Positions 18,401 to 38,499 of a stretch of DNA of 64,000 bases are shown here, in pieces. The position numbers and the translations under genes were made by a program. Every line of letters begins with the position of its first letter. Position 1 is the stretch's first letter. The notes below the pieces were generated by a model that saw nothing but the letters and a program-made list of their open reading frames with translations, did no database searches and was not told the origin of the DNA. The stretch is from a virus. Its lineage: Duplodnaviria > Caudoviricetes. The stretch lies in the IMG/VR virus record IMGVR_UViG_3300000101_000005. One strand, given 5' to 3'.

Positions 18401-21400
18401 GAACACTGATACAAGCTCTGCTCTACCATTGTTTGTTACCCAAGCACCGATACCGTCGGATATAACCTGTGTAAAGTCGTTACTAACAATCGAATCGTTA
18501 CCACCATTGTGTAGTGCGCCATCAATCTTTTGACCAATTGCACCAGTACCAAGTGTTGTTACGTTTTGTACGTATGGTGAACGTTCAATAATCCATGTTG
18601 AGAAATCATCTGGACCATATCCTGGATCAAGTGATACATAAGCACCACCCGAAACTCTTGAAGTTCCTAATGCATTTGGAGCAAGTAAGTCACCTGCCAT
18701 GTTTGCAAGAGTTTGGTTTCTAACACCAGTAGCGTTTCTTACATAATAGAAGTCTTCGCCATCTCTTGTACCATGTACTGCGTTACCGTAGTATCTTGCA
18801 GCCTGTAATGATTTGTAGTTACCATGGTATTGGAAGTCATACTTGAGTGCGTCAAGTATTCTATTCATATCTCTTTCACATTTTGCACTGTTGTAGTCAA
18901 GCATAACAGTCATTGAGCCAGACGCATCATCTATTGACATCGCAGTAGAAGTGTTTCTAGTTTTTGCAACTGTAAACTTAGTACCTGAAATAATTTTGTT
19001 TACGTAGTAAGTTGTTCCTACTTCAAAACCATTTCCGCCAGCAACTGCTGGAGCACTTAATATTGTTCCGCTAACTTTAATTGCTGTACCAATTCTTAAC
19101 CAACTAGTATCGCTAATTGTTAAAGAATCATCTGATGCTGCTGTTGCTGTACAAGTATCTTTATATGTGTCTTGTACCCATGCTGTAGATTCAGCAACAA
19201 TAAAGTTTCTATTTCTTTCAATTTGTAAAATAGCATAGTGTGCATTTCTTACTTCAGTAACACAAGGTGATCCTTCGTTTGAACCACTGTACACAACATC
19301 GTCTAAGTCTTTCATTAATGTATTAATACGTGCAATCGCTGTAGCGTCTCCGCCAACATTTGCAATTGCTTGTGTTCTTACATATTCAAAAGCACTTCTT
19401 GTAGTTGCTTTTTGATCTAAGTCGTAAACATCTTTTGCTGTTGCTCTCAAGTATGAAAGTGCAGCTCTCATTGTTTGTTCGTTACTGTTTGTAGCAAGGT
19501 CAAACATAACTGCTTCCATGATCAATCTTGTATCACGTAAACATTTAGTTTGGTTGTATAATACTTTTGCTGTAGTGCCATCTGTTTTAGTAGCACTTGG
19601 ATATACAACATCTGCTCCGCTTGGAGAGTTACAACTAAACACAATATTTGCTAGTGTGTAAGTATCTTCAATTGCTAAACCGTGTGCTGCGTCTACAGTA
19701 ATATCCATTACACCTGTGCTGTTATTATATGTAACTGCTGTAATGTTTAATACAGTTCCGTTAGCTTTAGTAACAATACCACCACTTACATATGTGTGTG
19801 CATATACACTTGTTCCAACATAAGTTTCAATTCTAGTTGTGCTAGGAACATCCTGTACTCTAAAATCAGTGTGATAATTAGTTGGATTTAAGTGATTGAT
19901 AACTCCCGTTACAACGGTCTCTTGCGCTGCATCTAAGGTCTCTACAGCGGTGATCAATGCTGAAGTACTAGTTACACTGTTCGTTAACTCTGGATAGTTA
20001 AATGCGTTTGCTACAACAGTTAAACTTGAACCGTCAGTAACTGTTTGTGTACTACCGCCAAATGTTGCAGACAATGTAAATGTGTTTGCATCTGGTGCAG
20101 TTTTAATCCAATATCTTCTAGTTTTGTATAATGCACCACTACCTGTACCATATGTAGTTCTCATCACAATTGCATCACCAGCTTGTAATCCGTGGTTAGC
20201 AGATGTAAGTGTGTTACTTGATGCTGCTGTAATTGTAATGTTTGGTTGATCGTTAATATCTGCAATTACTGCTGTAATAATATCAATTGATGTACCAATA
20301 AATGTTGAAGCTGCTGCACTACCTGCTGTACCTCTTGTTTGTGGTACAACACTTTGTAATGCTGTAACAGTAGTGTTAGTTGCAACATCTTGCATTATTG
20401 CTTTTAATTTATTGTATGCCGCAATAGTTGCTGCTGTTTCTGTGCTGTCAATTTGAGAAATAGTACCTTCCCAGTATGCCATAGCAGCAATTCTTGATTG
20501 GCTCTTACCACCATATGTTAAGTCGTAACAAATAGAGTCAACAATGTAACCTACATCTTGACGACATTTCATTTTACTGTATTTTACAGTAGGATAGTTA
20601 GCAGCGATAAATGCAATTAATTCTTCTTTAAAGAATTGTTTGTTTTCTCTAATTCTAGCTCTTGCATCTCCGTAACCATTTAAAAATGCAGCGTTGTATC
20701 CTGTAGGATCAGCACTGTTTCTTAATTCAAATTCACCAACTCTAAAGTCGATGTTTTTTTGCATTGTTCTAATTAAACGTTCAACATGTGTTTCTTCTAC
20801 TGTGTCAGCAAAAGGAACAGCAATGTCTTGTGCAAAAGCGTTAGTTGAAGTCTTAGTTACACTTGCACCTTTAATAATATCACCAACAACACCTTCTAAA
20901 CGTCCTAACGCAGCAATTGTATATTTTGCATCAGTCATATTTGTAATTGGTCCTGCAGGTCCAACGTTTGTGGATCTAACTTCTTCACCAAGCACAACAG
21001 TATTTTCTGGAACAATGATTGGTCCAATTTCTCTATACTGTCCTGTTTTAATTTTAATTGTGTTCTGTGGAGAATATCTTGCAGGAATATTAGTTGCATT
21101 GCCAGCAGCAATTGCATCTGTAATAATTTTTAAACCTGCTGCAAGTACAGTACCTGAAGTTGGTTCTGCAATCAATGTTGAAGATTTAAATTGTGAAACA
21201 ACAGCAGTTGAATTATCACCGTTTGTAGTTTGGTAATTAGTTGTTGGATCAGTTTGTGCTAATACATTGTTAACTAGTGTTAGCATATATGCATATGCTG
21301 CTGCTGAGTTTGCTGCTTCTGTTGTTAAGTTTGAGTATGGACCTGTATTGTAAGGTGCTTCGTATAAAGCTCCAACAAATGCATTTGCAGCACCTCTTGA

Positions 21401-23299
21401 TCTCTTGTTACCACCATGACACATGTCATAGACCATAGCGTCTAATACTAGTCCCATATCTCTGTGACAGTCATCATCCGCATAATCAAAGTTTTCCCAA
21501 ATGCTACCACTTGCAGCATTTGCAATTTGATATGTAATCCATTCTGTAACTTCACGTTGAATAAACGCTTTGTTCATTTCAATTAAGTGTCTTGCTTCTG
21601 GATGTCTTGGACCGTTTAATACTGCTTCACAAGCATATCTAACTGATGCAAATGGTTTATCTAATGTTGCACCATGCACTGGATATGGATTATCTTGTCC
21701 ATGTGGAGCAACGTAGTAAACGTAATCGTTTGCACCCATTGAACGCCATTCTGGATAGTTTGCTCCAGCTTGTAAAACTTGTCCTTCTACACCAATTGGA
21801 AGTCTAGCAACACCAGCACCGCCGTAGTAAACCAAATCACCTTTTGTTGTTAGTAGTGAAGTTTCACTACCTGTAATCATTTGGTTCCAGTAAGTACCTG
21901 TTGTGTCTTGGTCTGGACGACTGTTGTCTGCACCACCACCAGCTGCACCAATTGTTGATCCGTCATCGCCTTCTGATCTGTGTTTTAAAATACACACATA
22001 TGCGTTATCACCAAACTTGACACAGTCACCTGCTTCATATTCGTAATCGTCAGCCCATGTGCCTGCCCAGTAAAAACCACTTGATAGTTTGCTCCAGTAA
22101 TTAGGTTCAATTGGATGAGCTGCAACTCTTGCAGTCATTGATCCTGTACCTAGAGTTGGTGTAAATACTGTTCCGCCATGTGCGATTGAAATTGTAAATG
22201 TTGTTGCATCATCAACTGTCTTAATGTAGTATGTTGCACCTTCGTTAACGTTACCATAAACAGCACCGCTAAAGTATACTGACATACCAACAGCCATTCC
22301 TGTTGTGGATGTTGTTGTAAATTTGTTTGTTGAGTTACTTGATGCTGATATCGTAAAGTCGTTACTTAGCGAATCAACTGTAGCAACATATGAGTTACCG
22401 TTAACTGCTACAACTTGTCCAATTTTATAATCTGTTGCGTTGCTCCAGTTATTCTGAAAGTCAAAACCTTTACCAAACAATGCAAAGTTTGTAGTATCAG
22501 TTGAAGGATTAGTTGAAGCTGAATGATATGCTTTTGCTACGTATTGGTTACCACCGTATGATACAACATCACCTGGTTGGTATACTGTTGAATTGCTCCA
22601 AACGTTTTCATACTCAAAGCCTTCAATAAACTGTGTCCAGTTTGATGCGTCGGTTGCAAAGTTTGATGCATTTGAAGTATGCTGTGTAGTACAAATGTAT
22701 GTACCTGCACCTTGCTTAACAATATCATTATATTTGTATCTTGTATTTCCTGTCCAAGCAGCTTTATATTCTAGTCCTTGGTTAAAGATATCCCATTTAG
22801 ATTGATCATTTTCTAAACCACTAGAGGCAGTACTAGCAGAAGTATGACCTGTGTTTGCAACATAAGTTGTTCCACCATATCTAACTAAATCGTTAATTTT
22901 ATATCTTGTAGAAACGGCCCAATCACTCTTCCAGTCAAAGCCTTCAGCGTAAGCAGTCCATTTAGCAATATCAGTTTCAAGACCTAATGAAGCAGTAGCG
23001 GCAGATGTATGCGGAGTAGAACAAATATAAATCTGTCCACCGTACTTAACTAAGTCGTTTGTTTTGTAATAAGTTGATGTAGCCCAATCGCCCTTCCAGT
23101 CCTGACCGTCTGTCATCTGGTTCCATCTTGAAGGACTTACGCTCAAATCTGTATAAAAATCTGCGTCACTTGTATGTCCTGTAGTACAGATAAACGTTTT
23201 ACCGCCATATCTTACTACATCGTCTTTGTAGTAGACTGTAGGAGTGGCCCAATCGCCTTTCCATACAAATCTAATTCTACCTAATTTAAACTCTGCCAT
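15479..23299 (-). CDS. Giant virion structural/receptor-binding protein (2606 aa)
   Basis: N-terminal ~50-aa W-x5-Y-x3-D-x-V-x-YGG-x2-Y-x-C-x3-HTS repeats (CBM5/12-like), central helical CxRD repeats, Asp-box-like S-x-D-G-x-x-W repeats, and a C-terminus paralogous to 23368-28956. Confidence 0.8.
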   Translation of the reverse strand: MAEFKLGRIRFVWKGDWATPTVYYKDDVVRYGGKTFICTTGHTSDADFYTDLSVSPSRWNQMTDGQDWKGDWATSTYYKTNDLVKYGGQIYICSTPHTSAATASLGLETDIAKWTAYAEGFDWKSDWAVSTRYKINDLVRYGGTTYVANTGHTSASTASSGLENDQSKWDIFNQGLEYKAAWTGNTRYKYNDIVKQGAGTYICTTQHTSNASNFATDASNWTQFIEGFEYENVWSNSTVYQPGDVVSYGGNQYVAKAYHSASTNPSTDTTNFALFGKGFDFQNNWSNATDYKIGQVVAVNGNSYVATVDSLSNDFTISASSNSTNKFTTTSTTGMAVGMSVYFSGAVYGNVNEGATYYIKTVDDATTFTISIAHGGTVFTPTLGTGSMTARVAAHPIEPNYWSKLSSGFYWAGTWADDYEYEAGDCVKFGDNAYVCILKHRSEGDDGSTIGAAGGGADNSRPDQDTTGTYWNQMITGSETSLLTTKGDLVYYGGAGVARLPIGVEGQVLQAGANYPEWRSMGANDYVYYVAPHGQDNPYPVHGATLDKPFASVRYACEAVLNGPRHPEARHLIEMNKAFIQREVTEWITYQIANAASGSIWENFDYADDDCHRDMGLVLDAMVYDMCHGGNKRSRGAANAFVGALYEAPYNTGPYSNLTTEAANSAAAYAYMLTLVNNVLAQTDPTTNYQTTNGDNSTAVVSQFKSSTLIAEPTSGTVLAAGLKIITDAIAAGNATNIPARYSPQNTIKIKTGQYREIGPIIVPENTVVLGEEVRSTNVGPAGPITNMTDAKYTIAALGRLEGVVGDIIKGASVTKTSTNAFAQDIAVPFADTVEETHVERLIRTMQKNIDFRVGEFELRNSADPTGYNAAFLNGYGDARARIRENKQFFKEELIAFIAANYPTVKYSKMKCRQDVGYIVDSICYDLTYGGKSQSRIAAMAYWEGTISQIDSTETAATIAAYNKLKAIMQDVATNTTVTALQSVVPQTRGTAGSAAASTFIGTSIDIITAVIADINDQPNITITAASSNTLTSANHGLQAGDAIVMRTTYGTGSGALYKTRRYWIKTAPDANTFTLSATFGGSTQTVTDGSSLTVVANAFNYPELTNSVTSTSALITAVETLDAAQETVVTGVINHLNPTNYHTDFRVQDVPSTTRIETYVGTSVYAHTYVSGGIVTKANGTVLNITAVTYNNSTGVMDITVDAAHGLAIEDTYTLANIVFSCNSPSGADVVYPSATKTDGTTAKVLYNQTKCLRDTRLIMEAVMFDLATNSNEQTMRAALSYLRATAKDVYDLDQKATTRSAFEYVRTQAIANVGGDATAIARINTLMKDLDDVVYSGSNEGSPCVTEVRNAHYAILQIERNRNFIVAESTAWVQDTYKDTCTATAASDDSLTISDTSWLRIGTAIKVSGTILSAPAVAGGNGFEVGTTYYVNKIISGTKFTVAKTRNTSTAMSIDDASGSMTVMLDYNSAKCERDMNRILDALKYDFQYHGNYKSLQAARYYGNAVHGTRDGEDFYYVRNATGVRNQTLANMAGDLLAPNALGTSRVSGGAYVSLDPGYGPDDFSTWIIERSPYVQNVTTLGTGAIGQKIDGALHNGGNDSIVSNDFTQVISDGIGAWVTNNGRAELVSVFSYYSHVGYLSENGGRIRGTNGNNSYGDFGSVAEGFDSTETPNTAIVDNKFQFEATVGSVQTDNAQQVYAFEFTNAGNEYTNATWLISGAGTGATAETDEYRDGGVHEVFLQDNVDDSTNAPEADGNFGGFGYITNSNTCQAGTSTSITLAATDAEISSAYVGMRVNVTGGAGVGQYGIISSYNSGTKIAAVTKESTGASGFDHIVAGTTIVAPDASSTYTVEPRAVFSAPTDSSEGVTLPTSGAWQDVLWGARTGVYLPSSTYNNSGGSGASFQVIKNGGKYITTIVSGGTGYTRYNTFTIAGNNVGGAATTHDITVTVVSVDTNGVILEIETEGSAQEGAWVAVKSSAAAGAYSTDGKTWTANVMPNANWTSIAHGLIDDGSTVALQSRYVAVATGSATAAYSDDGVTWVTSTMPSSGTWTDVTYGEGKFVAVQAGSATVAISLDGVVWDLTGTLNNTGHTRIEYGKGLFVAIKPSSTVVEYSTDAITWTAAALPASRAWTDVAWGNGHFVAVASDNNTGAMSLDGATWVAMPMGAPDSTAVSGLQKVEYGQGQFVATAYLDGLDGFNDVATSQDGFNWTWKSLEGVTGDQVGEGYMACGHGVSGKKGYWVTIPVVSGAIASRSRLGVTAKARTFVAQNKIFSIRIIEPGAGYDSVPTLTITDPSEIYAVPFLVRIGNGVLANPTFLSRGTGYVSASADLTGGDGHADFFQSGSFIAVRQLTNIPVTGSNVVFGHLPNDTFKLVNIITQLGTNPGAYTCFLQVSPNMKIINVPAHGTSVTTRIKYSQVRLTGHDFLDIGTGNFTETNYPGLPTQDPIQAQETRERNGGRVFYTATDQDGNFRVGGLFSVEQSTGVATLNADAFNIAGLQELSLGEVTLGGGSASIEEFSTDPFFTADSDSVVPTQRAIKAYISSQIGGGGASLNVNSVTAGAIYIAGTQITTTTQAAIKVNANLNFKGGVRGLPIAWQYFLN

Positions 23300-23367: not shown

Positions 23368-26300
23368 TTAATCAGTCCTAATACCCTTATGCTCAAAGCT
23401 TCGATAAAATAATGCCTGAGCTAGATAACTTCCCCCAATGCCCGCTTTCGGACCTTGTAAATCAAACATCACTGGGATGTTAACTGCTTGTCCTGCTGTA
23501 TTACCAATCTCATCAGGACCTACCTTAACTGTACCTGCGATAAAGCTCGCTGTTAACAAGTCTGCTCCACCAACGTTAAGTCTATTTGTTAAGTACGCTT
23601 TAATTGCTCTCTGTGTAGGAATAATGTTGTTTGAATCTGCAATAAACAACGGATCTGTTGAGAACTCTCTAATAACTGTACCAGTACCACCAACTCTAAT
23701 TCCACCTAGTGCAAGTTCTGTAAGACCTGCTAAGTCAAAGAAGTCAGCACTAATAGTAACAATACCTGTAGACTGTTCAACAGCAAACAATTCACCAACC
23801 CTAAAGTTACCTGATTGGTCTGTACTTGAGTAGAATACTCTACCACCATTTATTTCTTGTACCTCATTTTCTGGATAAGAAATATAATTTTGTGTATACA
23901 ATCCTGGATAGTTAGTCTGTGTAAAGTTACCTGTACCAATATCTAGGAAGTCGTGGTTTGAAATTCTACATTGTGAATATCTAGTGTTAATTGTTACGCT
24001 ATTACCATGATTTGTTGTTGGATCGTCCTCAATTTTAAGTTCAGGACTTACTCTAAATCTTAGAGTAAAGGTTCCACCAGTATCAACACTTTCTTGCTCA
24101 ATAACAACAACAGTGTAAAGTTCTGGGTTACCAGTAAGTCTTAACTGCGCACCTGGGCCAATAACAACTGGCATTCCAGAAACTGTAATAAACTTACCTA
24201 CAGGAGTAATATCTGCAAAACCATCACCTGTTACAGTAACAGTAGTTGTACTTGTTTTATATGCAGTACCTCTGTTAGTCCAACTTGGTTGTGCTAATAC
24301 ACCGTCTGCAAATCTTGTCATATCAAGTTCAAGTTCACCTGTGTTGTTAGGATCAATAACTGTGTACCCAACTGGAGTATTAACAATATCATAACCTGAA
24401 CCTGGATCCCAAAGTTTTACAACTCCGATCGATCCAGCAGTTACATCTGCTCTACCTTTAATTGTAGCACCTGTGTAAACAACTTTGTGAGTAAATTTAA
24501 CATCACGGTCTAATACTACCCATCTACCTTTTCTATTATCTAAACCATCTGTAGCATCTGCATCTGGATTACCAAATACACATCTGTTCCAGTTTCCAAT
24601 TTGTCCAATGTCTCTCTCGGTCCAATGTATTCCGTCTGGTGATGTGTAAATGTATTGTACCGGTCCTGTTGTTGCATCTCCTGAAATAGTTCTACCTGCT
24701 GTATCGTAAAGTGCCATAAACACACCTTGACCATATTTTAGATCGTTCCATTGTAATATTGTTGAACCATCTATTAATGGCATAGTTGCCGGATACCAAG
24801 TTTCTCCATCGAATGAATAACCAATATCGCCAGTGTCTGACATAGCAACAAATCTATTATTACCAAATGCAACACGGTTCCAATCTTTTTGCGTACTGTC
24901 TGCAACAACGTCCATGATATAAGTTGCCCAAGTAATAGTTGTACCGTTCCATGTTCCTATTGCTGCTAAGTTATTACTATTTGCAATTGCAACAAATTTT
25001 CCTGCACCATAAGTTACACTCACCCATTCGTTAATAGTTGAGTCGCCTGCTGCTGGAAAGTTAGCTGCTGACCAAGTTGCGCCGCCGTTGGTTGATATCG
25101 CTGCATTGTTTCCTGCACTTGAAACTGCAACAAATACGTTTGCTTCTACTTCATCATATATTGGATTACCGTATGCAACATCTGTCCAATTAGTATTTGC
25201 TGGTAAACTAAATGCAGTCCATACGCTACCATTTGAACTATATGCACCTACTGCTGCAGAATCTTTAATTGCAACAAACTTTCCGTTACCTGCTGCAACT
25301 GATTTCCATACACCTGCGGATGGTAAGTTTGCCGTTGCCCATGTTGTTCCGTTAAGAGAGTAGTTAACAGTTGTACCTGTGTTTGCAACTGCTACAAATC
25401 TACCACTTTCTGCAAATCCTGTATATTCAAATGTAACAATGCTGTTTGTACTATCGTCAGTTACACTATGTACTGAGATTGTAATATTGTTATCACTGCC
25501 TGCACCTAAGCTACTACCTAAAATTACAAGACTGTCGCCTATTGCGTATCCAGCACCACCTTGTCTTAATGTAACTGTGTAGTCTTTGCCAAGTTTTACA
25601 ATATCAAATGTTGGGTTAGAAGCCGGTACTCCGATTGTTGATCCTGTTCCTGTACCTGTTGCACTAACAGATGTATATACAGCTGATGTTTCACCGTAAG
25701 CTACATCACCCCATGTTGTACCAGAATCAAGTGTTGATACTGCATGTGAAAAAGGAGGTGCATCAAACACAACTCTTGGTTCGAACCTATAAGATGTACC
25801 TGTTAATAATTGTTCTAAAATTGGTTTACCTGGAACTACATGATCCCAACCTGGTGTAGCAGTAGACTCCTTGTAAACTGTTACAACTTTTGAAGTACTG
25901 TTATAAGCATGTACATAACCATACTGTCCTGTACCAGGTCCTGATGTTAAAATAATTCTTAAACCTAACAAGTTTGCTTCTTCATTTTCATCGTTAGTAG
26001 CAATAGTAATAGTAGTTGTATCACCAGTTTGAGCGTTGTTACCAATAAGTGTAAATCCGCCTCCACCTGCTGCTGCTGACGCTTGACCTGTAACAATCCT
26101 TGCTTCAAACATAGCATCATCTCTAGTTTCTTCTTGAAGTACTGCTGCGTTTGCACCTGAACCAACAAATGTATAATCTGCTGATGTATAATTTTGTCCA
26201 CAGTTTTTAAATTCTAATGCAAGAATCTCATCATTTACTTCTCCAGCAAATGCTGACACAACCTGTGCTTCTTCTTGTCTGTTATTAATTGTAGCAGTAA

Positions 26301-28956
26301 TTGGTGTTTCAGTTGGGTCTGTACCGTCTGCTAACGCACCAATGTAACCATATGAACAGTTACCATTAGTAGCACGTATAATACCACCATTTTCTGCTAG
26401 GTATCCTACCTGTGCATAATATGTAAACACTGATACAAGTTCTGCTCTACCATTGTTAAGAACGTGAGCACCAATACCATCACTAATTACCTGTGTAAAA
26501 TCGTTGGACACGATTGATTTGTTACCGCCTGCGTGTAATGATCCATCAATTTTTTGTCCTGTACAATTGCTACCAAATGTAGATACACCTTGTATATATG
26601 GAGAACGTGTTGTAATCCAAACTTTAGTATCTGCTGTACCCCAACCTGGATCAAGCGAAACATAATTAGGACCAGTTGGTCTTTGATATTGTTCAAAAAC
26701 GTTTGGTGGATTAAGTGTACCTGTTAAACCGTCAAGTGTACATTGTCTAACTCCACAGGCATCTCTAACATAAAACATATCTGTTGACGAACTTCCAACT
26801 ACCATGCTGTTGTAGAACTTACCTTCTTTTAAAATTCTATAGTTTCCTTCATACTGTAAATCGTATGCAAGTGCATTACAAATTCTATGCATATCGTCAT
26901 TATAAATTGCACTATCGTATGCATAATCACTAAATGTATTATCAAGATATGATGTTGCTTCTTTCATTAAGAAGTCTTTATTTGCAATAATCATTCTTGC
27001 TGCATTTAATCTATTTGTTTGAGTTGTAATTGCATTTGTACCAGTAACAACAGGATCAGTTCCTGTACTTTGTACATGGAAATTAATATACTGATTATAA
27101 TCTGCTAGTCCGTTGTCAACTAAGTTTGCTGCAACTGAATCTGAAGTAACTTGCACGTAGTTAATAATTTCTAGTCCATCGCCTGTTGGAGGTCCTGGAT
27201 TAAATGTTCCTGTCTTAATAGCATCTGTAATTACTGTAACATCAGCAGTATTTCCTGATTGTTTTGTAAACGATGTTCCTTCTAAAATGTGTCTAATAAC
27301 ACCTTGTAAGTGTGTTGATACAGCAATTCTGTATACAGCATCACTTGCCATAGAAGCAATTGCACCTCTTGGTTTAATTTTAGATGATCTAATTTCATCA
27401 CCAAGCACAACTGTTTTAGCAGGCAAACTGATTGGAAGTATTTCTTCGTACAAGCCTGTTGTTAATTGTATTGTGTTATGTGCGTCTACACCGTCGTCAG
27501 CTATTTCTGCTGCGTATCTAACTGTCTTAACTGGTTTGAAAGGATCAATACCTGCGTTGGCGTTTGCTCTATCATCTACACCAATAATTGGATCAACGTA
27601 AATGTACCTTGCACTTTTACCCCAGTTATCATATTCTAAAGTATCAGTTGGACCAACTTGTAAAAGTTTCTCAGCAGTTCCTAGTGGAACGTTAGTAGCA
27701 CCTAATGTAGATCCGTCACCAGCAATAGTTCTGCTTAATCCAAATGTTAATAAATCACCCGGGTTAACAAGTCCAACATTATCTGCACCTTGAAGTAAAA
27801 GATCCCAATAATTAAATCCACTACCGTTATCTCCTGGGAAGTTTTCATCACTTGCTGTATGTTCTATGTTTGCTTTATATGCACTACCTCTGTAAGTAAT
27901 TACATCGCCTACTGCGTATACTGTTGCAGTAGTCCAAGAATTTTTCCACGCTTGTCCGTTAACAATAAGTTCCCAGTTACCTGCATCAAGATAGTCTAAT
28001 GAACTTCCGTCATCAGCACTGTTTAATGTTGCAACATAAATTGATCCGCCTCTTTCAACAACATCACCTGTTTTATATTGTGTTGCCTTTGCCCATGTAC
28101 CTGCAAGATTAATACCTTTTGAAATAACTGCCCAATCAACCTCACCCGGTTGGTAAATTGAATCACCTGGGTTACGTGCATAATTGTTTGTTTGTGACTG
28201 GTAAACATATCCGCCGTGTTGTACAACATCGCCAATTGCATAGTATGTTGAGCCTGACCACTGACCTTGAATTTTACGTCCTGGTACTTCTAAAACAAAG
28301 TTTGAAGAAGTAATATTAGTTGTTGATGTATGTCCTGTTAAAACTCTTAAAAGCGATCCACCATACTTAACAAGGTCCTGCGCTCTGTATCTAGTAGCGT
28401 CAGTATATGAACCTTTAAACGTTTTACCGTAGTAATAAGTTGTCCATTTAAATTGATCGTCTTCTAAACCTAATGCTGTAGTTGCTGCTGAAGTATGTGC
28501 AGTAGAACATTTGTAAACAATACCACCGTAGTTAACAACATCGCCTACACCGTATGTCGTTGCAACTGCCCAATCGCTACCCCAGTCTGCTCCTGGAACA
28601 TAAACTGCCCAATTAGCAATGTCTGTATTAAAATCTGCTGATGATGTGTGTCCTGTTGCAACAAGCCAAAGAGTACCACCGTCATCTACAATGTCTCCGT
28701 TATAGTAAGTCGTTGCGGCTGCCCAAGCACCTCTAAATGCTCTACCATCGGACATCTTCTTCCATGCCGGTTGTGCAATAGTGTCGCCAACTGGTATGTA
28801 ATCCACATCTGCTTTAAAGTTTGCTGATGTGTGTCCTCTAAGCGCAATATATACACTGCCTCCGTACTGTACAACATCATCAATGATGTATGCAGTTGCA
28901 GTTGTCCATGGACCTTTCCATGTATATCTAATTCGACTTATCTTAAACTCTGCCAT
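23368..28956 (-). CDS. Giant virion structural/receptor-binding protein (1862 aa), paralogue of 15479-23299
   Basis: MAEFK.RIR..WKG.W start, the same CBM5/12-like repeats, GGNKSIVSNDFTQVISDG, Asp-box repeats and HDFLDIGTGNF...PTQRAIKAY. Confidence 0.8.
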   Translation of the reverse strand: MAEFKISRIRYTWKGPWTTATAYIIDDVVQYGGSVYIALRGHTSANFKADVDYIPVGDTIAQPAWKKMSDGRAFRGAWAAATTYYNGDIVDDGGTLWLVATGHTSSADFNTDIANWAVYVPGADWGSDWAVATTYGVGDVVNYGGIVYKCSTAHTSAATTALGLEDDQFKWTTYYYGKTFKGSYTDATRYRAQDLVKYGGSLLRVLTGHTSTTNITSSNFVLEVPGRKIQGQWSGSTYYAIGDVVQHGGYVYQSQTNNYARNPGDSIYQPGEVDWAVISKGINLAGTWAKATQYKTGDVVERGGSIYVATLNSADDGSSLDYLDAGNWELIVNGQAWKNSWTTATVYAVGDVITYRGSAYKANIEHTASDENFPGDNGSGFNYWDLLLQGADNVGLVNPGDLLTFGLSRTIAGDGSTLGATNVPLGTAEKLLQVGPTDTLEYDNWGKSARYIYVDPIIGVDDRANANAGIDPFKPVKTVRYAAEIADDGVDAHNTIQLTTGLYEEILPISLPAKTVVLGDEIRSSKIKPRGAIASMASDAVYRIAVSTHLQGVIRHILEGTSFTKQSGNTADVTVITDAIKTGTFNPGPPTGDGLEIINYVQVTSDSVAANLVDNGLADYNQYINFHVQSTGTDPVVTGTNAITTQTNRLNAARMIIANKDFLMKEATSYLDNTFSDYAYDSAIYNDDMHRICNALAYDLQYEGNYRILKEGKFYNSMVVGSSSTDMFYVRDACGVRQCTLDGLTGTLNPPNVFEQYQRPTGPNYVSLDPGWGTADTKVWITTRSPYIQGVSTFGSNCTGQKIDGSLHAGGNKSIVSNDFTQVISDGIGAHVLNNGRAELVSVFTYYAQVGYLAENGGIIRATNGNCSYGYIGALADGTDPTETPITATINNRQEEAQVVSAFAGEVNDEILALEFKNCGQNYTSADYTFVGSGANAAVLQEETRDDAMFEARIVTGQASAAAGGGGFTLIGNNAQTGDTTTITIATNDENEEANLLGLRIILTSGPGTGQYGYVHAYNSTSKVVTVYKESTATPGWDHVVPGKPILEQLLTGTSYRFEPRVVFDAPPFSHAVSTLDSGTTWGDVAYGETSAVYTSVSATGTGTGSTIGVPASNPTFDIVKLGKDYTVTLRQGGAGYAIGDSLVILGSSLGAGSDNNITISVHSVTDDSTNSIVTFEYTGFAESGRFVAVANTGTTVNYSLNGTTWATANLPSAGVWKSVAAGNGKFVAIKDSAAVGAYSSNGSVWTAFSLPANTNWTDVAYGNPIYDEVEANVFVAVSSAGNNAAISTNGGATWSAANFPAAGDSTINEWVSVTYGAGKFVAIANSNNLAAIGTWNGTTITWATYIMDVVADSTQKDWNRVAFGNNRFVAMSDTGDIGYSFDGETWYPATMPLIDGSTILQWNDLKYGQGVFMALYDTAGRTISGDATTGPVQYIYTSPDGIHWTERDIGQIGNWNRCVFGNPDADATDGLDNRKGRWVVLDRDVKFTHKVVYTGATIKGRADVTAGSIGVVKLWDPGSGYDIVNTPVGYTVIDPNNTGELELDMTRFADGVLAQPSWTNRGTAYKTSTTTVTVTGDGFADITPVGKFITVSGMPVVIGPGAQLRLTGNPELYTVVVIEQESVDTGGTFTLRFRVSPELKIEDDPTTNHGNSVTINTRYSQCRISNHDFLDIGTGNFTQTNYPGLYTQNYISYPENEVQEINGGRVFYSSTDQSGNFRVGELFAVEQSTGIVTISADFFDLAGLTELALGGIRVGGTGTVIREFSTDPLFIADSNNIIPTQRAIKAYLTNRLNVGGADLLTASFIAGTVKVGPDEIGNTAGQAVNIPVMFDLQGPKAGIGGSYLAQALFYRSFEHKGIRTD

Positions 28957-34147: not shown

Positions 34148-34540
34148 CTATACGTCTTCTAATGTTAAAACGTTTGTAGTTGAGTCATCACTAACAGACC
34201 ACTTGTATCTGTTGTTACTAAAGTCTGTAGCAATTCTGTTTGACATCTTCATAACGTTAACTGCTTGACCGTTATAGTAACCAATGATTACCATTTCGCC
34301 TTCAAGCACAGCAGAAGAATCAGTAACTTTATTTACAAGTTTACAAATTGCTTCTTCGCCTGAGTCATTACCGTGAACTAAAAATCTACGTGAAGATTTT
34401 TGTTTAACGATATAAACATCACTGCCGCCATCTGTAGCATTAACAATAATGCCGCCGATAAACGCTGCTTCAACTGGAATATGAGGTGTTGCGTCAACAC
34501 CCAATGCACCGAAATATTTCTTATTAATTGGTCTTCCCAT
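34148..34540 (-). CDS. Conserved late/virion protein (MGRPINKKYFG...)
   Basis: Strong SD (AAGGAG); first gene of the fibre operon after a TAAATA promoter. Confidence 0.65.
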   Translation of the reverse strand: MGRPINKKYFGALGVDATPHIPVEAAFIGGIIVNATDGGSDVYIVKQKSSRRFLVHGNDSGEEAICKLVNKVTDSSAVLEGEMVIIGYYNGQAVNVMKMSNRIATDFSNNRYKWSVSDDSTTNVLTLEDV

Positions 34541-34629
34541 TTTTTTCTCCTTAAGTTTGACGTTCTAGGTCTACGCGGTTGGTTTTCCGCATAAGTCCGC
34601 CGTTGTCAGCGGCACACTTTTGACACAAG
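34541..34629 (-). promoter_or_regulatory. Structured 5' leader with a possible H-type pseudoknot and a hairpin
   Basis: TGTCA/TGACA interleaved with GCCG/CGGC, then the hairpin TATGCGG-AAAACCAA-CCGCGTA, upstream of the SD. Confidence 0.5.
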
Positions 34630-34965: not shown

Positions 34966-35180
34966 TATAAGCAAAATAGGTAGGACTTGGGTACACCTAC
35001 AAGCACGGACCTGAATACCATTCTGTTCCGTACAACCTAACCCCGCTAGTGAATGCGATGTGATACTGCCTATCTCTAGTACAGCACCTGGGTACCACCC
35101 CTGGTTAGTCAAGTTCAACCCTTCTGGTAAAGGCTTCTTCCTTGCACTATAAACAAAAGTTAATTACTCTTTTGTTGCTA
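34966..35180 (-). ncRNA. Candidate independently transcribed structured ncRNA (~215 nt plus terminator), family unknown
   Basis: It has its own sigma70-like promoter and UUCG terminator, is GC-richer than its flanks, forms many nested stems and has no credible ORF. Confidence 0.65.
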
Positions 35181-35236: not shown

Positions 35237-35431
35237 CTATATATTATTACTTGAAGTAACAGAAATATGTTTTAGTACTTTGCCAGTATTCTCGCCACTT
35301 TTTACAGTATATCCACTAGTACCACTACCATTAATATTTGGCTCAGAACGTGACATCATTAAGATGCGTTCCTTACGAGCTCTCATTTTTGCCTCGCGGT
35401 ATGTTTTGTGTAAATGATCGAATCTGTTCAT
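35237..35431 (-). CDS. Small basic protein (64 aa) downstream of the glutamine riboswitch candidate
   Basis: ATG 35431 follows SD AAGGAGG. The ORF-track start at 35470 lies inside the aptamer and is rejected. Confidence 0.7.
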   Translation of the reverse strand: MNRFDHLHKTYREAKMRARKERILMMSRSEPNINGSGTSGYTVKSGENTGKVLKHISVTSSNNI

Positions 35432-35454
35432 AACACCCTCCTTTTTAAAGTTAG

Positions 35455-35503
35455 GTGCGTTCCTTCGCATAATGCTACTTCCGTCCCGATTGGGATGAAC
35501 GAT
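35455..35503 (-). promoter_or_regulatory. Glutamine riboswitch, glnA-motif (Gln-I) type aptamer
   Basis: Minus strand AUCGUUCA-UCCC-AAUC-GGGA-CGGAAGUA-GCA-UUA-UGC-GAAGGAACGC has P1 CGUUC/GAACG, P2, P3 and the AGUA/GAA E-loop, matching the glnA consensus as I recall it. Confidence 0.8.
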
Positions 35504-35519
35504 ACTATTATTTAGTCAT

Positions 35520-35551
35520 AAAAAAAGGGCGATATAAAAATACCGCCCTTT
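35520..35551 (-). terminator. Intrinsic terminator of the major capsid gene
   Basis: Minus strand AAAGGGCG-N12-CGCCCTTTTTT, about 25 nt after the capsid stop. Confidence 0.75.
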
Positions 35552-35577: not shown

Positions 35578-36750
35578 TTACGCAAATCTTAGGTTAGCTG
35601 AAGTAACTCCAACTTTTCCTAAGTAGTCAGCTGCATTACCAAGAGATGATGCAGTGTTTGTTAACTCTACATAACCATATCTTGTCATGAAACTTACAAC
35701 TGGCTCAAATGTACCTGGATCAAGTACAACACCGCTTGACATCAAAGGAATGTATGGGCAGTAGAACGCAGGTGCGTCTGATTCCGAAGAACCTTTGTAA
35801 CCGATCAACACATCGTCGTCAGTTGCATAACCGTTAACGTACACACGCATTGCACTATTTAAAGTTCCTACAAACTTAGTGTTTGTTGGTGCTTCAAAAG
35901 TACCTTCAGTTGTTCTTGCGAACGCTGAAGTTGTAGCAGATTGTAACAACGTTAATACTGTTGGTGAAACAACAGCGTAGTTACCTGCGCCACGTCTTGT
36001 ACGCTGTGCAATCAAGTTAGATACTCTGTTGATTTGAACAGCTAAAGCAGCATGTTCGTCACCAACAAAAGTAGCAGTACCTGACACTGCACCTTGGTCG
36101 TAAGTTAAAGCAGCCGTACCAGCAAGTGTTTTCAATGATTGAATAACTTCTTGGTCAATTTCAGCTGTTATTTCTTGTGCTAAAGCAGCCATTACTTCTG
36201 CTTCGATGTCAATGCCCTGTTGAGCTTGTGCATCTTGTGCAGCTTCAAACGTCCAACGAGCACTCAATTTACGAGTTTTCGCTTCGACAGTTTGTTTCAA
36301 GATTTGAATGCTTAGTCTGTTTCCAGCTACACCTTCTAAAGCTGCTGTAGAAGCTGCTTTATCATTAGTAGCACCAGAATAACCTTCTGCGATCTTGAAA
36401 GGTGATAGTGCTTCGTCACCTGCTGTAGTGTCAGTTCCACTTCCAGAGTTGAATGCATCAGCATAACGTACTCTTAATGTGTGGATTTGACCAACAGGTC
36501 CAGTCATTGGCTGTACGCCAACTAGTTCATTAGCGATGACCGTAGGCATCACACGTCTGATCACTGGAAGGATCACACGGTTTAGTGTTGCGACGTTACC
36601 GGCAGATGTAGCACCTGCTGTAGCAGACTCGTTCAAATACGTGCGGGTATTCTCCAGAGTTGTTGCCATAACAGTACGCTTGTTACCTTGAAGTCCTTCT
36701 AAAAGGGCATCTTTGGTTTCTGACCAGCGACTTTCTAGTAGTTGTGACAT
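35578..36750 (-). CDS. gp23: Major capsid protein, T4 gp23-like
   Basis: ILPVIRRVMPTVIANELVGVQPMTGPVGQIHTLRVRY, VEAKTRKLSARWTFEAAQD, AFYCPYIPL, FMTRYG. Confidence 0.97.
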   Translation of the reverse strand: MSQLLESRWSETKDALLEGLQGNKRTVMATTLENTRTYLNESATAGATSAGNVATLNRVILPVIRRVMPTVIANELVGVQPMTGPVGQIHTLRVRYADAFNSGSGTDTTAGDEALSPFKIAEGYSGATNDKAASTAALEGVAGNRLSIQILKQTVEAKTRKLSARWTFEAAQDAQAQQGIDIEAEVMAALAQEITAEIDQEVIQSLKTLAGTAALTYDQGAVSGTATFVGDEHAALAVQINRVSNLIAQRTRRGAGNYAVVSPTVLTLLQSATTSAFARTTEGTFEAPTNTKFVGTLNSAMRVYVNGYATDDDVLIGYKGSSESDAPAFYCPYIPLMSSGVVLDPGTFEPVVSFMTRYGYVELTNTASSLGNAADYLGKVGVTSANLRFA

Positions 36751-37866: not shown

Positions 37867-38499
37867 CTACGCTTTATTTAGACTTGAAATAAAATTTTTC
37901 AAGCTCTCTGCTATATATCTTTGTGCCTGTGTATCGCCTTGTACTTCTTGTGCCACTTGAAATGCCTTGTAGCCACCTTGTGCGTTCATAAGGTGTTCGT
38001 AAACTGGTGTTGGATATGCTCCCGGGGCAGATGGTTGAGCTACGACATCAACAGTAATAATTTCAAATCCTTGAACATTACCATCTCCGTCAACTTCTCC
38101 CGAACCTCTACTTGAGACTCCCAACTTGACTCCTGATTCCAACATCGATGAAACAATTTGTCCCATCGGCGTTGGTAACATTTTAAGTTTTCCGTAGCCA
38201 TTTGGACCATCCATCCACATTTTTGTAATCATGTGACTGACCCTGTCCAAATTGATTCGTAAATCTTGTGGGTGATCAACTTCACCTAGCACTGAATACC
38301 CCCCAGAAATCTGTTCATTGAGCGTTTTGACAGCCCTATCAATTTCCTTAGAAGAATAAACACGCTGATTAGCGTTACGAATGTCACCTTGAATACAGAT
38401 GCCACTCAAGTGTAACGACTTACCATCATCATGCTCATCACGCTCAAGTACGATTTTAGCCTGATCGAAGCTCAGATGTTCTGCTAGTTTAGTTTTCAC
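37867..38499 (-). CDS. gp21: Prohead protease, T4 gp21-like
   Basis: GICIQGDIRNANQRVY, LGEVDHP, VSHMI, LGVSSRGSG, DVVAQPSAPGAYP. Confidence 0.95.
   Translation of the reverse strand: MKTKLAEHLSFDQAKIVLERDEHDDGKSLHLSGICIQGDIRNANQRVYSSKEIDRAVKTLNEQISGGYSVLGEVDHPQDLRINLDRVSHMITKMWMDGPNGYGKLKMLPTPMGQIVSSMLESGVKLGVSSRGSGEVDGDGNVQGFEIITVDVVAQPSAPGAYPTPVYEHLMNAQGGYKAFQVAQEVQGDTQAQRYIAESLKNFISSLNKA

What the first reader, a model, noticed from the sequence alone, without database searches (positions are those of the whole stretch)
35237..35514. Phage late transcript with a glutamine riboswitch controlling a small basic protein that may mimic GS-inactivating factors
Seen: capsid terminator, then TAAATA (35514-35509), a glnA-type aptamer beginning about 6 nt later, SD AAGGAGG, and the 64-aa ORF MNRFDHLHKTYREAKMRARKERILMMSRSEP... 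Known: glnA-motif RNAs bind L-glutamine, occur in cyanobacteria and marine metagenomes, and control gifB (IF17, a glutamine-synthetase inactivating factor). IF7 is a ~65-aa basic, disordered protein with an Arg-rich N-terminal helix containing an RQQSMLSR-like segment. Inference: RKERILMMSR loosely resembles that segment, so the phage may sense host nitrogen status during capsid synthesis and adjust GS activity or lysis timing. The protein similarity is weak and unverified.
Basis: partly seen in the sequence, partly recalled or inferred. Interest (0 to 1): 0.85.

Follow-up and report, generated by a model that had tools for sequence, protein, structure and literature searches.

The report
Phage glutamine riboswitch gating small protein
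Just after its capsid gene, an uncultured marine phage carries a genuine glutamine-sensing RNA switch that most likely turns on a conserved 64-residue basic protein when the host is nitrogen-rich; the protein belongs to a widespread, unstudied phage family and shows no detectable relationship to the cyanobacterial glutamine-synthetase inactivating factors.

Summary
Window 35454-35503 (-) matches Rfam RF01739 (glutamine riboswitch) over the whole model at 58 bits (gathering score 35). It follows the gp23 capsid terminator and a T4-type late-promoter motif, TAAATA. After it come a Shine-Dalgarno sequence and a 64-aa ORF (35431-35237).

The ORF is a real gene: dN/dS is 0.11-0.35, the profile finds 136 clusters at 50% identity, and 497 IMG/VR contigs encode a relative. 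Of 48 close relatives, 46 carry the riboswitch.

A 6-bp helix between the aptamer's 3' tail and the bases just after the Shine-Dalgarno covaries across phages. This fits the published glutamine-ON translational mechanism.

The idea that the protein mimics IF7 is not supported. Profile comparison with genuine IF7/IF17 gives 0.2-0.3% probability, there is no DUF4278 hit, and the three invariant arginines are absent. A different class of phage riboswitch ORFs is DUF4278-like and served as a positive control.

The protein's function is unknown. Leads are repeated adjacency or fusion to phage SpeD and placement after capsid genes.

Phage glutamine riboswitches are already published (cyanophages, phage Melnitz). 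New here are the regulated protein family, the insertion sites, and an unannotated ORF behind Melnitz's riboswitch. Interest is moderate.

The parts
35578..36750 (-). gp23-type major capsid gene, immediately upstream of the unit
   Evidence: Pfam Gp23, E 1e-99, and phrog_138. A gp23 gene is the upstream neighbour of riboswitch cassettes in 33 loci.
35524..35551 (-). Intrinsic terminator that ends the capsid transcript
   Evidence: 12-bp stem, 4-nt loop and a T run.
35509..35514 (-). TAAATA, the T4-type late promoter -10 element. The inferred transcription start is about 35503, the first base of the aptamer.
   Evidence: Sequence. TAAATA ends 6-13 nt before GTTCA in 50 of 109 unique phage contexts, most often 7 nt. 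In this window 19 of 54 copies are intergenic against 3.7 expected. Use as a promoter is inferred, not measured.
35454..35503 (-). Glutamine riboswitch aptamer (RF01739; P1, P2 and P3 with the conserved junctions)
   Evidence: 58 bits against a gathering score of 35, full model length. Relatives score 58-60.7 bits. P1 covaries (CGUUU/AAACG) in L299, L308 and L334.
35453..35458 (-). Anti-SD strand GCACCU. It overlaps the aptamer's 3' tail and includes the C that I infer to be the ligand-dependent 'linchpin' partner.
   Evidence: It pairs with 35438-35433 in the MFE fold. Covariation across phage leaders is shown. The linchpin G-C pair is described in PMC11477058 and PMC6212724.
35433..35443 (-). 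Shine-Dalgarno AAGGAGG (35443-35437) and the sequestered strand GGGUGU (35438-35433)
35237..35431 (-). 64-aa basic protein P0001 ('class A', phrog_32989-like), stop codon included
   Evidence: The AF2 model has helix 3-27 followed by a low-confidence part.
34970..35174 (-). manA-type structured RNA downstream, with its own sigma70-like promoter (35215-35188). No terminator separates it from the ORF, so it may lie on a read-through late transcript.
   Evidence: RF01745, 54.7 bits against a gathering score of 55.2, E 6e-13. It scores above the gathering score in relatives L008 and L009.

Best explanation
The unit is a self-contained late-expressed cassette in an uncultured marine T4-like myophage. 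A T4-type late promoter (TAAATA) starts an mRNA whose first 50 nt are a type-1 glutamine riboswitch.

Proposed switch. Without glutamine, the aptamer's 3' tail (GCACCU, 35458-35453) pairs with GGGUGU (35438-35433). That strand overlaps the 3' end of the Shine-Dalgarno, so initiation is blocked. When glutamine binds, a junction G is inserted at the base of P1 and pairs with the tail C (the 'linchpin'). This melts the helix, frees the ribosome-binding site and allows translation of a 64-aa basic protein. The protein is therefore made late in infection and only in nitrogen-replete (high-glutamine) cells.

The protein. It has an N-terminal basic helix and a conserved motif, NG-x-GTSGY-x-VK-x-G-x-N-x-GKVL-x-H. 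It belongs to a large, uncharacterised family of marine-phage small proteins. It is not a homologue of IF7 or IF17. Its most likely role is a small effector that binds a metabolic target, but the target is not identified.

Shown: the aptamer's identity, the conserved architecture, that the ORF is coding, and the tight linkage between riboswitch and gene. Inferred: the transcription start, the ON direction, and what the protein does.
For: Aptamer: RF01739 at 58 bits, full length. The same aptamer is found in 14 related loci at 58-60.7 bits. P1 shows compensatory variants.

Expression platform: the MFE fold contains the 6-bp helix between the tail and the SD region. The two strands covary across phage leaders: GCACCU/GGGUGU, GCACUU/GAGUGU, GCAUCU/GGAUGU, GCAAUC/GAUUGA. 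The observed mean is 4.73 paired positions, against 4.43 (sd 0.046, maximum 4.60) in 1000 permutations.

ON direction: Klahn 2018 shows that the gifB type-1 riboswitch raises expression with glutamine. It proposes that ligand binding melts a helix between the nucleotides after P1 and the ribosome-binding site (PMC6212724). The linchpin G23-C60 pair is described in PMC11477058.

Late promoter.

Real gene: dN/dS is 0.11-0.35 for unsaturated pairs. Homologues of 70-95% identity keep the full 64 aa. The HMM search finds 136 clusters, and 497 viral contigs encode a relative. There is a hit to phrog_32989, E 6e-6.

Linkage: 42 of 48 unique close relatives have the strict riboswitch core and 4 more have variant cores.

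Mobility: the cassette keeps its unit structure in two different contexts, after gp23 and after speD.
Against: No experiment shows glutamine binding, the transcription start or the regulatory direction for this RNA. The ON direction is transferred from Synechocystis gifB.

The covariation test used a crude rule for picking the SD and start codon, and the sequences are related to each other, so the permutation z-score overstates independence.

The one near-identical contig over this region from an RNA library (X15, 35313-35538) extends upstream of the proposed start. It may be read-through RNA or contaminating DNA.

The protein has no known family, a low-confidence fold (pLDDT 63) and no identified target, so 'effector' is an inference from analogy and context.

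More distant family members lack the riboswitch (HTVC011P gp41; P0020; L312 and L332). The protein's role therefore does not intrinsically require glutamine gating.
Confidence: 0.72

Rival explanations
1. One reading: the 64-aa protein is a functional analogue or mimic of the cyanobacterial glutamine-synthetase inactivating factors IF7 and IF17. It would bind host type-I GS and shut it off when glutamine is high.
For: It has the same regulatory logic as gifB: a type-1 glutamine riboswitch controlling a small basic protein (PMC6212724). It is small and basic with an N-terminal helix. Phages do carry genuine DUF4278/IF17-like ORFs behind the same riboswitch (class C, hhalign probability 94%, E 1e-7; Pfam). 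This shows that phages acquire IF-type genes. Marine heterotroph genomes put this riboswitch in front of GS and gltD.
Against: There is no sequence relationship: 0.2-0.3% probability against the IF7-like domain and full-length IF17 profiles. There is no DUF4278 hit. The three invariant arginines of the IF family have no conserved counterparts. IFs are described as unique to cyanobacteria (PMC7760959). This phage's nearest riboswitch relative is in a phage of OM43, a host reported to lack glnA (PMC9004378). The conserved part of the family is the C-terminal GTSGY...GKVL motif, not the basic helix.
Confidence: 0.08
2. The protein works with the phage's S-adenosylmethionine decarboxylase (SpeD) as a nitrogen-gated subunit or regulator. 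It would tie polyamine synthesis, which is needed for DNA packaging, to glutamine supply.
For: The family's gene lies directly after speD in three forms. In the first the riboswitch sits between the two genes (L002-L007, L012-L015). In the second there is a 26-nt spacer and no riboswitch (P0020; L259 and L260). In the third the two are fused in one ORF (P0015, P0044, P0041; contigs L256-L258). P0041 fuses only the conserved C-terminal motif to SpeD.
Against: In this window the gene follows gp23, and no speD is detectable in the 64 kb (tblastn). speD is also the upstream neighbour of unrelated riboswitch ORF classes (C and E), so the position may simply be an insertion hot spot. Other family members sit next to DUF6321 and Cpn10, or in a podophage late region. 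Gene-call fusions in metagenomes can be deletion variants with no function.
Confidence: 0.15
3. The protein is a virion-associated or DNA-binding basic protein, such as an internal or packaging protein. It would be made with the capsid only when nitrogen allows.
For: The unit is late-promoter driven and lies directly after the major capsid gene. Cassettes of all ORF classes prefer that site: gp23 in 33 loci and another capsid type in 5. The protein is strongly basic.
Against: There is no similarity to any structural protein. The five ORF classes at this site are unrelated to each other, which argues for a hot spot rather than a shared structural role. The same gene occurs in auxiliary-metabolic-gene regions (speD, desaturase, HSP20).
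Confidence: 0.12
4. The riboswitch does not act through the ORF. Either it regulates RNA upstream or downstream (as proposed for the tmRNA in phage Melnitz, or read-through into the manA RNA), or the ORF is only a leader peptide.
For: PMC9004378 assigns the Melnitz riboswitch to ssrA. No terminator separates the ORF from the manA RNA.
Against: Riboswitches act on what lies 3' of them. The conserved SD, the covarying anti-SD helix and the start codon point to translational control of the next ORF. The ORF is under purifying selection and belongs to a large family that also exists without any riboswitch. Melnitz itself has an unannotated 32-aa ORF with the same SD and spacing directly behind its riboswitch.
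Confidence: 0.05

Closest known systems
Type-1 glutamine riboswitch (glnA RNA, RF01739) of cyanobacterial gifB (Klahn et al. 2018, PMC6212724; aptamer structure by Ren et al. 2015, as summarised in PMC11477058)
   Same: The aptamer is the same at full length (58 bits). It lies in the 5' UTR of a small basic protein gene. Nucleotides just 3' of P1 can pair with the ribosome-binding site. The expected response is glutamine-ON translation.
   Different: It is carried by a phage and driven by a T4-type late promoter rather than an NtcA-repressed promoter. The regulated protein is unrelated to IF17/DUF4278.
Glutamine riboswitch of Methylophilales phage Melnitz and pelagimyophages (Buchholz et al. 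2022, PMC9004378)
   Same: It is the nearest cultured relative of the RNA: 86-88% identity over the aptamer, leader and start codon. Both phages are marine T4-like myophages.
   Different: In Melnitz the riboswitch follows the tmRNA gene and was interpreted as controlling ssrA. Here it follows gp23. In Melnitz the ORF behind it is an unannotated 32-aa peptide of another class (class B). hhalign between the P0001 family (class A) and class B gives only 1.4% probability.
IF7 / IF17 glutamine-synthetase inactivating factors (gifA, gifB; DUF4278 plus an IF7-like domain)
   Same: Both are small, basic, helix-containing proteins produced at high nitrogen. gifB is gated by the same riboswitch class.
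   Different: There is no detectable homology, no DUF4278 and no conserved arginine triad. The conserved motif of the phage family (GTSGY..K.G.N.GKVL.H) has no counterpart in the IFs.
phrog_32989 / Pelagibacter phage HTVC011P gp41 (hypothetical protein)
   Same: It is the same protein family: PHROG E 6e-6, and gp41 carries RKEVNINGNGTRGYLIKEGINKG.
   Different: The podophage copy has no riboswitch and is 54 aa long. No function is known for any member.

Membership tests
Glutamine riboswitch, RF01739 | Covariance-model score at or above Rfam's gathering score, over the full model | tested here: met
   58.0 bits against 35; model positions 1-53 of 53; E 3.5e-10.
Glutamine riboswitch, RF01739 | P1, P2 and P3 helices with the conserved junction sequences (ACGGAAGUAG, GAAGGAACGCA), and helices supported by covariation in relatives | tested here: met
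   The alignment to the consensus shows no non-canonical pair. The P2 and P3 sequences differ among phage copies while pairing is kept. P1 shows CGUUU/AAACG variants.
Glutamine riboswitch, RF01739 | Located in a 5' UTR with an expression platform that couples the aptamer to the ribosome-binding site | tested here: met
   The aptamer ends 10 nt before the SD. A 6-bp tail/SD helix appears in the MFE fold and covaries.
Glutamine riboswitch, RF01739 | Selective binding of L-glutamine and ligand-dependent gene control | not testable with these tools
   This needs in-line probing or ITC, plus reporter assays.
IF7/IF17 GS-inactivating factors | DUF4278 (PF14105) domain, as in IF17 and IF17-like proteins | tested here: not met
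   P0001 has no hit at E <= 1. Controls: IF17 from L181 scores 73 bits, and phage class C ORFs score 22-26.5 bits.
IF7/IF17 GS-inactivating factors | IF7-like domain (ARxLM...RQQSMLxR..E.G) detectable by profile comparison | tested here: not met
   hhalign probability is 0.2-0.3%. The control comparison, IF7-like domain against IF17, gives 100%.
IF7/IF17 GS-inactivating factors | Three invariant arginines in the helix, spaced 13 and 7 residues apart | tested here: not met
   A5 has invariant R83, R96 and R103. The P0001 family has invariant R3 and R28 only, and positions 19-22 are variable. That these arginines contact GS is recalled from the literature and was not checked here.
IF7/IF17 GS-inactivating factors | Binds and inactivates glutamine synthetase | not testable with these tools
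   The host and its GS are unknown, so no job was run on GS.
Phage small-protein family phrog_32989 ('class A') | Profile match, and the conserved motif NG.GT[ST]GY.[VI]K.G.N.G..L.H after a basic helix | tested here: met
   phrog_32989 E 6.1e-6. There are 136 representative clusters at E <= 1e-3.
T4-type late promoter | A TATAAATA-like -10 element about 6-7 nt before the transcript start, with no -35 element | tested here: inconclusive
   cTAAATA lies 5 nt before the aptamer's first base. Its position is conserved in 50 of 109 phage contexts, and it is enriched in intergenic DNA 19 against 3.7. The transcription start and dependence on gp55 were not measured.

The most novel reading that the evidence does not exclude
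The GTSGY-motif proteins ('class A') would be a new kind of phage effector made only when the infected cell's glutamine pool is high. They would bind and retune a nitrogen-linked enzyme in marine heterotroph hosts: the phage's own SpeD (polyamine synthesis), or host GS or a PII-type regulator. Together with at least four other unrelated ORF classes behind the same riboswitch, they would form a family of interchangeable glutamine-gated cassettes that marine phages insert after their capsid or speD genes.
Probability: 0.25. Interest if true: 0.8.

Novelty: new variant of a known kind. Interest (0 to 1): 0.58.

Why it matters
Riboswitches are rare in phages. The glutamine riboswitch has one experimentally established output, IF17 and control of GS in cyanobacteria. 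This work shows that marine phages use the same sensor in front of a set of small basic proteins: this window alone leads to about 500 viral contigs for one family, and at least 119 contigs carry the aptamer core. Most of these proteins have no relatives of known function.

This gives a concrete entry point to how phages read host nitrogen status late in infection. It also provides a defined set of proteins for which a target can be sought. In addition, it corrects a published reading: the riboswitch of phage Melnitz is followed by an overlooked ORF, so it need not regulate the tmRNA that lies upstream of it.

The RNA element itself is a textbook member of a known class. The value therefore lies in the regulated genes and their distribution, not in a new mechanism.

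Tried and rejected
1. Complex prediction of a SpeD dimer plus the class-A protein, both from one contig (L002): no verdict (score 0.01, mark 0.32). This is not evidence either way.

2. AlphaFold2 with a 15-row alignment: mean pLDDT 63, with only helix 3-27 confident. The model is too poor for fold searches, so none were run.

3. A PDB profile search, NCBIfam, Pfam and the ESM Atlas named no family.

4. RNA-library contigs. The capsid gene is well covered. Over the riboswitch and ORF there is only one near-identical contig (X15, 35313-35538, depth 2.8). There are also short pieces that stop inside the conserved aptamer core and probably come from relatives. Contigs cannot show a start site and may derive from DNA, so this was not used as evidence.

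5. The whole genome was not available, so the host, gp55/gp33 and speD elsewhere in the ~195-kb genome could not be checked.

6. A plain count of CTAAATA in the window is not enriched overall (13 against 18 expected). Only the intergenic placement of TAAATA is informative.

7. My first regex screen for riboswitches upstream of class-A ORFs undercounted, because many ORF calls extend into the aptamer. One search replaced it.

8. A GS co-fold was considered and not run, because the host GS is unknown and a stand-in would not be informative.

9. hhalign among the five phage ORF classes found no significant links (A-B 1.4%, B-D 2.3%). I therefore treat them as unrelated, although peptides this short give the test little power.

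Full report
WHAT IS THERE

On the minus strand the window carries a T4-type structural module: a prohead protease (37867-38499), a scaffold-like protein, and the gp23 major capsid protein at 35578-36750 (Pfam Gp23, E 1e-99).

After the capsid stop codon the elements come in this order:
- an intrinsic terminator at 35551-35524;
- the motif cTAAATA at 35515-35509;
- five bases later, a full-length match to the Rfam glutamine riboswitch RF01739 at 35503-35454: 58.0 bits against a gathering score of 35, E 3.5e-10, with no non-canonical pair (repeated);
- ten bases after the aptamer, AAGGAGG at 35443-35437;
- five bases after that, ATG at 35431, opening a 64-codon frame that ends at 35237.

THE ORF IS A REAL GENE

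Eight protein clusters of 70-100% identity exist in public metagenomes. The full-length ones keep the MNRF... N-terminus, and some lack the internal Met16 that one public gene call used as the start.

Pairwise dN/dS is 0.11-0.35 wherever dS is not saturated. A profile of 15 members finds 136 representative clusters (50% identity level) at E <= 1e-3 among 1.8 billion proteins. Nearly all are 40-110 residues long. In IMG/VR, 497 viral contigs encode a relative.

The family matches phrog_32989 (E 6e-6). It includes gp41 of the cultured Pelagibacter podophage HTVC011P.

The conserved core is not the basic N-terminal helix. It is the C-terminal motif R-x-E-V-x-I-N-G-x-G-T-S-G-Y-x-V-K-x-G-x-N-x-G-K-V-L-x-H. 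AlphaFold2 is confident only about helix 3-27 (mean pLDDT 63). Pfam, NCBIfam, PDB sequences and the ESM Atlas give no named relative.

THE RIBOSWITCH AND THE GENE TRAVEL TOGETHER

All contigs fetched for three homologues carry RF01739 at 58-60.7 bits directly before the ORF. This holds in two different settings:
- after gp23, as in the window (L008-L011);
- after an AdoMet decarboxylase gene (speD) and before a fatty-acid desaturase (L002-L007, L012-L015).

I also sampled by protein similarity rather than by the RNA. In that sample, 42 of 48 unique close relatives have the strict aptamer core. Four more have variant cores, three of them with a compensatory P1 change (CGUUU/AAACG). Only two lack the aptamer.

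More distant members lack it: HTVC011P gp41, and P0020, which has a 26-nt spacer after speD.

HOW IT MOST LIKELY WORKS

The MFE fold of the leader pairs GCACCU (35458-35453) with GGGUGU (35438-35433). GCACCU overlaps the last five aptamer bases. GGGUGU overlaps the 3' end of the Shine-Dalgarno and the spacer before the start codon.

Across phage leaders the two strands change together. CACC goes with GGUG, CACU with AGUG, CAUC with GAUG, and CAAUC with GAUUG.

In a permutation test the observed mean is 4.73 paired positions out of 6. The permuted mean is 4.43 (sd 0.046), and no permutation out of 1000 exceeded 4.60. The sequences are related to each other, so this overstates their independence.

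Published work supports the direction of the switch. The Synechocystis gifB type-1 riboswitch raises expression with glutamine. The nucleotides just after P1 can pair with the ribosome-binding site, and ligand binding is proposed to melt that helix (PMC6212724). In the crystal structure, ligand binding inserts a junction G into the base of P1, where it forms a 'linchpin' pair with a 3' C (PMC11477058).

By position, that C corresponds to C35457 in the anti-SD strand. I therefore read the element as a translational ON switch. The aptamer's identity and the covarying helix are shown. The direction of the switch is inferred by homology.

LATE TRANSCRIPTION

TAAATA ends 6-13 nt before the GTTCA of P1 in 50 of 109 unique phage contexts, and 6-8 nt in 39 of them; the window's spacing is 8. 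In the window, 19 of 54 TAAATA copies lie in the 6.9% of sequence that is intergenic, against 3.7 expected. Many of these lie upstream of structural genes on the coding strand.

This agrees with an earlier scan note on the same genome. It places the inferred transcription start at about the first aptamer base. It remains a sequence inference.

RNA-library contigs do not settle the point.

THE IF7-MIMIC IDEA

I obtained genuine comparison sequences by scanning GTDB genomes for the aptamer core. Cyanobacterial loci gave full IF17 proteins (DUF4278 plus an IF7-like C-terminal domain) and short IF7-like proteins directly behind the riboswitch.

Profile-profile comparison of the P0001 family gave these results:
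- against the IF7-like domain: probability 0.3%;
- against full-length IF17: probability 0.2%.

The controls behaved as expected. The IF7-like domain against IF17 gives 100%. A separate class of phage ORFs rich in YRGV repeats ('class C') gives 94% (E 1e-7) against IF17, and it hits DUF4278 in Pfam.

The IF alignment has three invariant arginines, 13 and 7 residues apart. The phage family conserves only R3 and R28.

The likeness between RKERILMMSR and RQQSMLSR is therefore not evidence of kinship. Phages do carry IF17-like genes behind this riboswitch, but this gene is not one of them. A functional analogy cannot be excluded with these tools.

WIDER PICTURE

The first ORF behind it falls into at least five classes. 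No significant profile similarity links them, though the power of the test is low for such short peptides:
- A: this family;
- B: 28-38-aa peptides of the form M..YT.WCYK...;
- C: DUF4278-like;
- D: ...LPxYITDNPFYP, usually behind tandem aptamers;
- E: ...SRPRCEKNILS.DPRLQKI.

The gene immediately upstream of the cassette is gp23 in 33 loci across all classes. It is another capsid type in 5 loci and speD in 17. These sites therefore look like preferred slots for glutamine-gated small-ORF cassettes.

The nearest cultured relative of the window's RNA is in Methylophilales phage Melnitz, at 86-88% identity over the aptamer, leader and start codon. Its authors place the riboswitch in the 3' part of ssrA and suggest that it controls the tmRNA (PMC9004378). 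The record shows an unannotated 32-aa class-B ORF with the same SD and spacing directly behind it. That ORF is the more conventional target.

The aptamer core is also present in the genomes of SAR86, SAR116, a Pelagibacteraceae MAG and alphaproteobacterial single-cell genomes. There it is often tandem, and it lies upstream of GS, gltD and a TonB-dependent receptor. Hosts outside the cyanobacteria therefore use this sensor too. This fits the original metagenomic description (PMC2864571) better than the later statement that the riboswitch is exclusive to cyanobacteria.

WHAT THE PROTEIN DOES

This is unknown. The best lead is speD. Class-A genes follow speD with the riboswitch between them, follow it with a 26-nt spacer, or are fused to it in one ORF. 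One fusion form joins only the conserved C-terminal motif to SpeD.

Three points weigh against a specific link:
- other ORF classes also sit after speD;
- the window's copy follows gp23;
- no speD is detectable in the 64 kb.

The single complex-prediction job on a SpeD/class-A pair returned no verdict and is not used.

I rate the targets as follows: a nitrogen-linked enzyme target of some kind, about 0.25; SpeD specifically, 0.15; GS, under 0.1; a virion or DNA-associated role, about 0.12.

VERDICT

The RNA observation is correct, and the element is a textbook member of a known riboswitch class. Phage copies are already in the literature (PMC9004378, PMC9964418).

New here:
- the identity, breadth and near-obligate riboswitch linkage of the regulated small-protein family;
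- the covarying expression platform;
- the preferred insertion sites after capsid genes and speD;
- the re-reading of the Melnitz locus.

I rate this as a new variant of a known kind, of moderate interest.

Noticed in passing
window 34970-35174 (-), promoter 35215-35188, terminator about 34963-34939: The stand-alone structured RNA just downstream of the small ORF is a manA-type RNA. RF01745 scores 54.7 bits, just under the gathering score of 55.2, with E 6e-13. The same element scores above the gathering score (59.5-59.6 bits) in relatives L008 and L009. manA RNAs are known from T4-like cyanophages and marine gamma-proteobacteria.
   Followed up: partly
window 34538-34613 (-) and 49504-49648 (-): Two more Rfam families score above their gathering scores. 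A freshwater-2 RNA (54.4 bits) forms the leader of the 130-aa ORF at 34148-34540. A Polynucleobacter-1 RNA (59.4 bits) lies next to a GIY-YIG-type region. Three or four structured RNAs therefore cluster within 1 kb after the capsid gene.
   Followed up: no
L016 (Melnitz MZ577097) 4004-3909 (-): Directly behind the Melnitz glutamine riboswitch there is an unannotated 32-aa ORF (MTLYQQWCYLK...) with a GGGGAGAG Shine-Dalgarno and a GUGUU spacer. The record annotates only the overlapping tmRNA and an opposite-strand hypothetical gene. The published paper assigns the riboswitch to ssrA.
   Followed up: partly
viral loci L017-L135: At least five apparently unrelated classes of 17-65-aa basic ORFs follow phage glutamine riboswitches. 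Class C is DUF4278/IF17-like. Class D (...LPxYITDNPFYP) usually has two tandem aptamers. The cassettes sit preferentially after major capsid genes (38 loci) or speD (17 loci).
   Followed up: partly
genome loci L143, L155, L159, L170, L182, L185, L199, L207, L252: The aptamer core occurs, mostly in tandem, in genomes labelled SAR86, SAR116, Pelagibacteraceae, Rhodobacterales and in alphaproteobacterial single-cell genomes. It lies upstream of a GS-like gene (MSDIKTYEYVWLDG...), gltD and a TonB-dependent receptor. This contradicts the claim that the riboswitch is exclusive to cyanobacteria. Some MAG hits (for example L209) look like mis-binned phage contigs.
   Followed up: partly
P0015, P0041, P0044 (contigs L256-L258); L259 and L260: The class-A domain is fused to the C-terminus of a phage AdoMet decarboxylase (SpeD) in several contigs. 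In others it follows speD after a 26-nt spacer with no riboswitch. An HSP20 gene follows in both arrangements.
   Followed up: partly
P0073, P0092, P0094: Some representatives join the class-A C-terminal motif to N-terminal fragments that look like LpxD, HPPK (folK) or a family-2 glycosyltransferase. They could be chimeric gene calls, or insertions into bacterial genes. This was not examined.
   Followed up: no
window 15479-23299 (-) and 23368-28956 (-): Two giant ORFs of 2606 and 1862 aa lie in the structural region. The gp23 protein is closest (68-72% identity) to capsids of 350-470-kb jumbo phages (Sinorhizobium phage Phosso, Vibrio phage 2.275.O, GAP32/Rak2-like phages). It is not closest to cyanophage or pelagimyophage capsids.
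   Followed up: no
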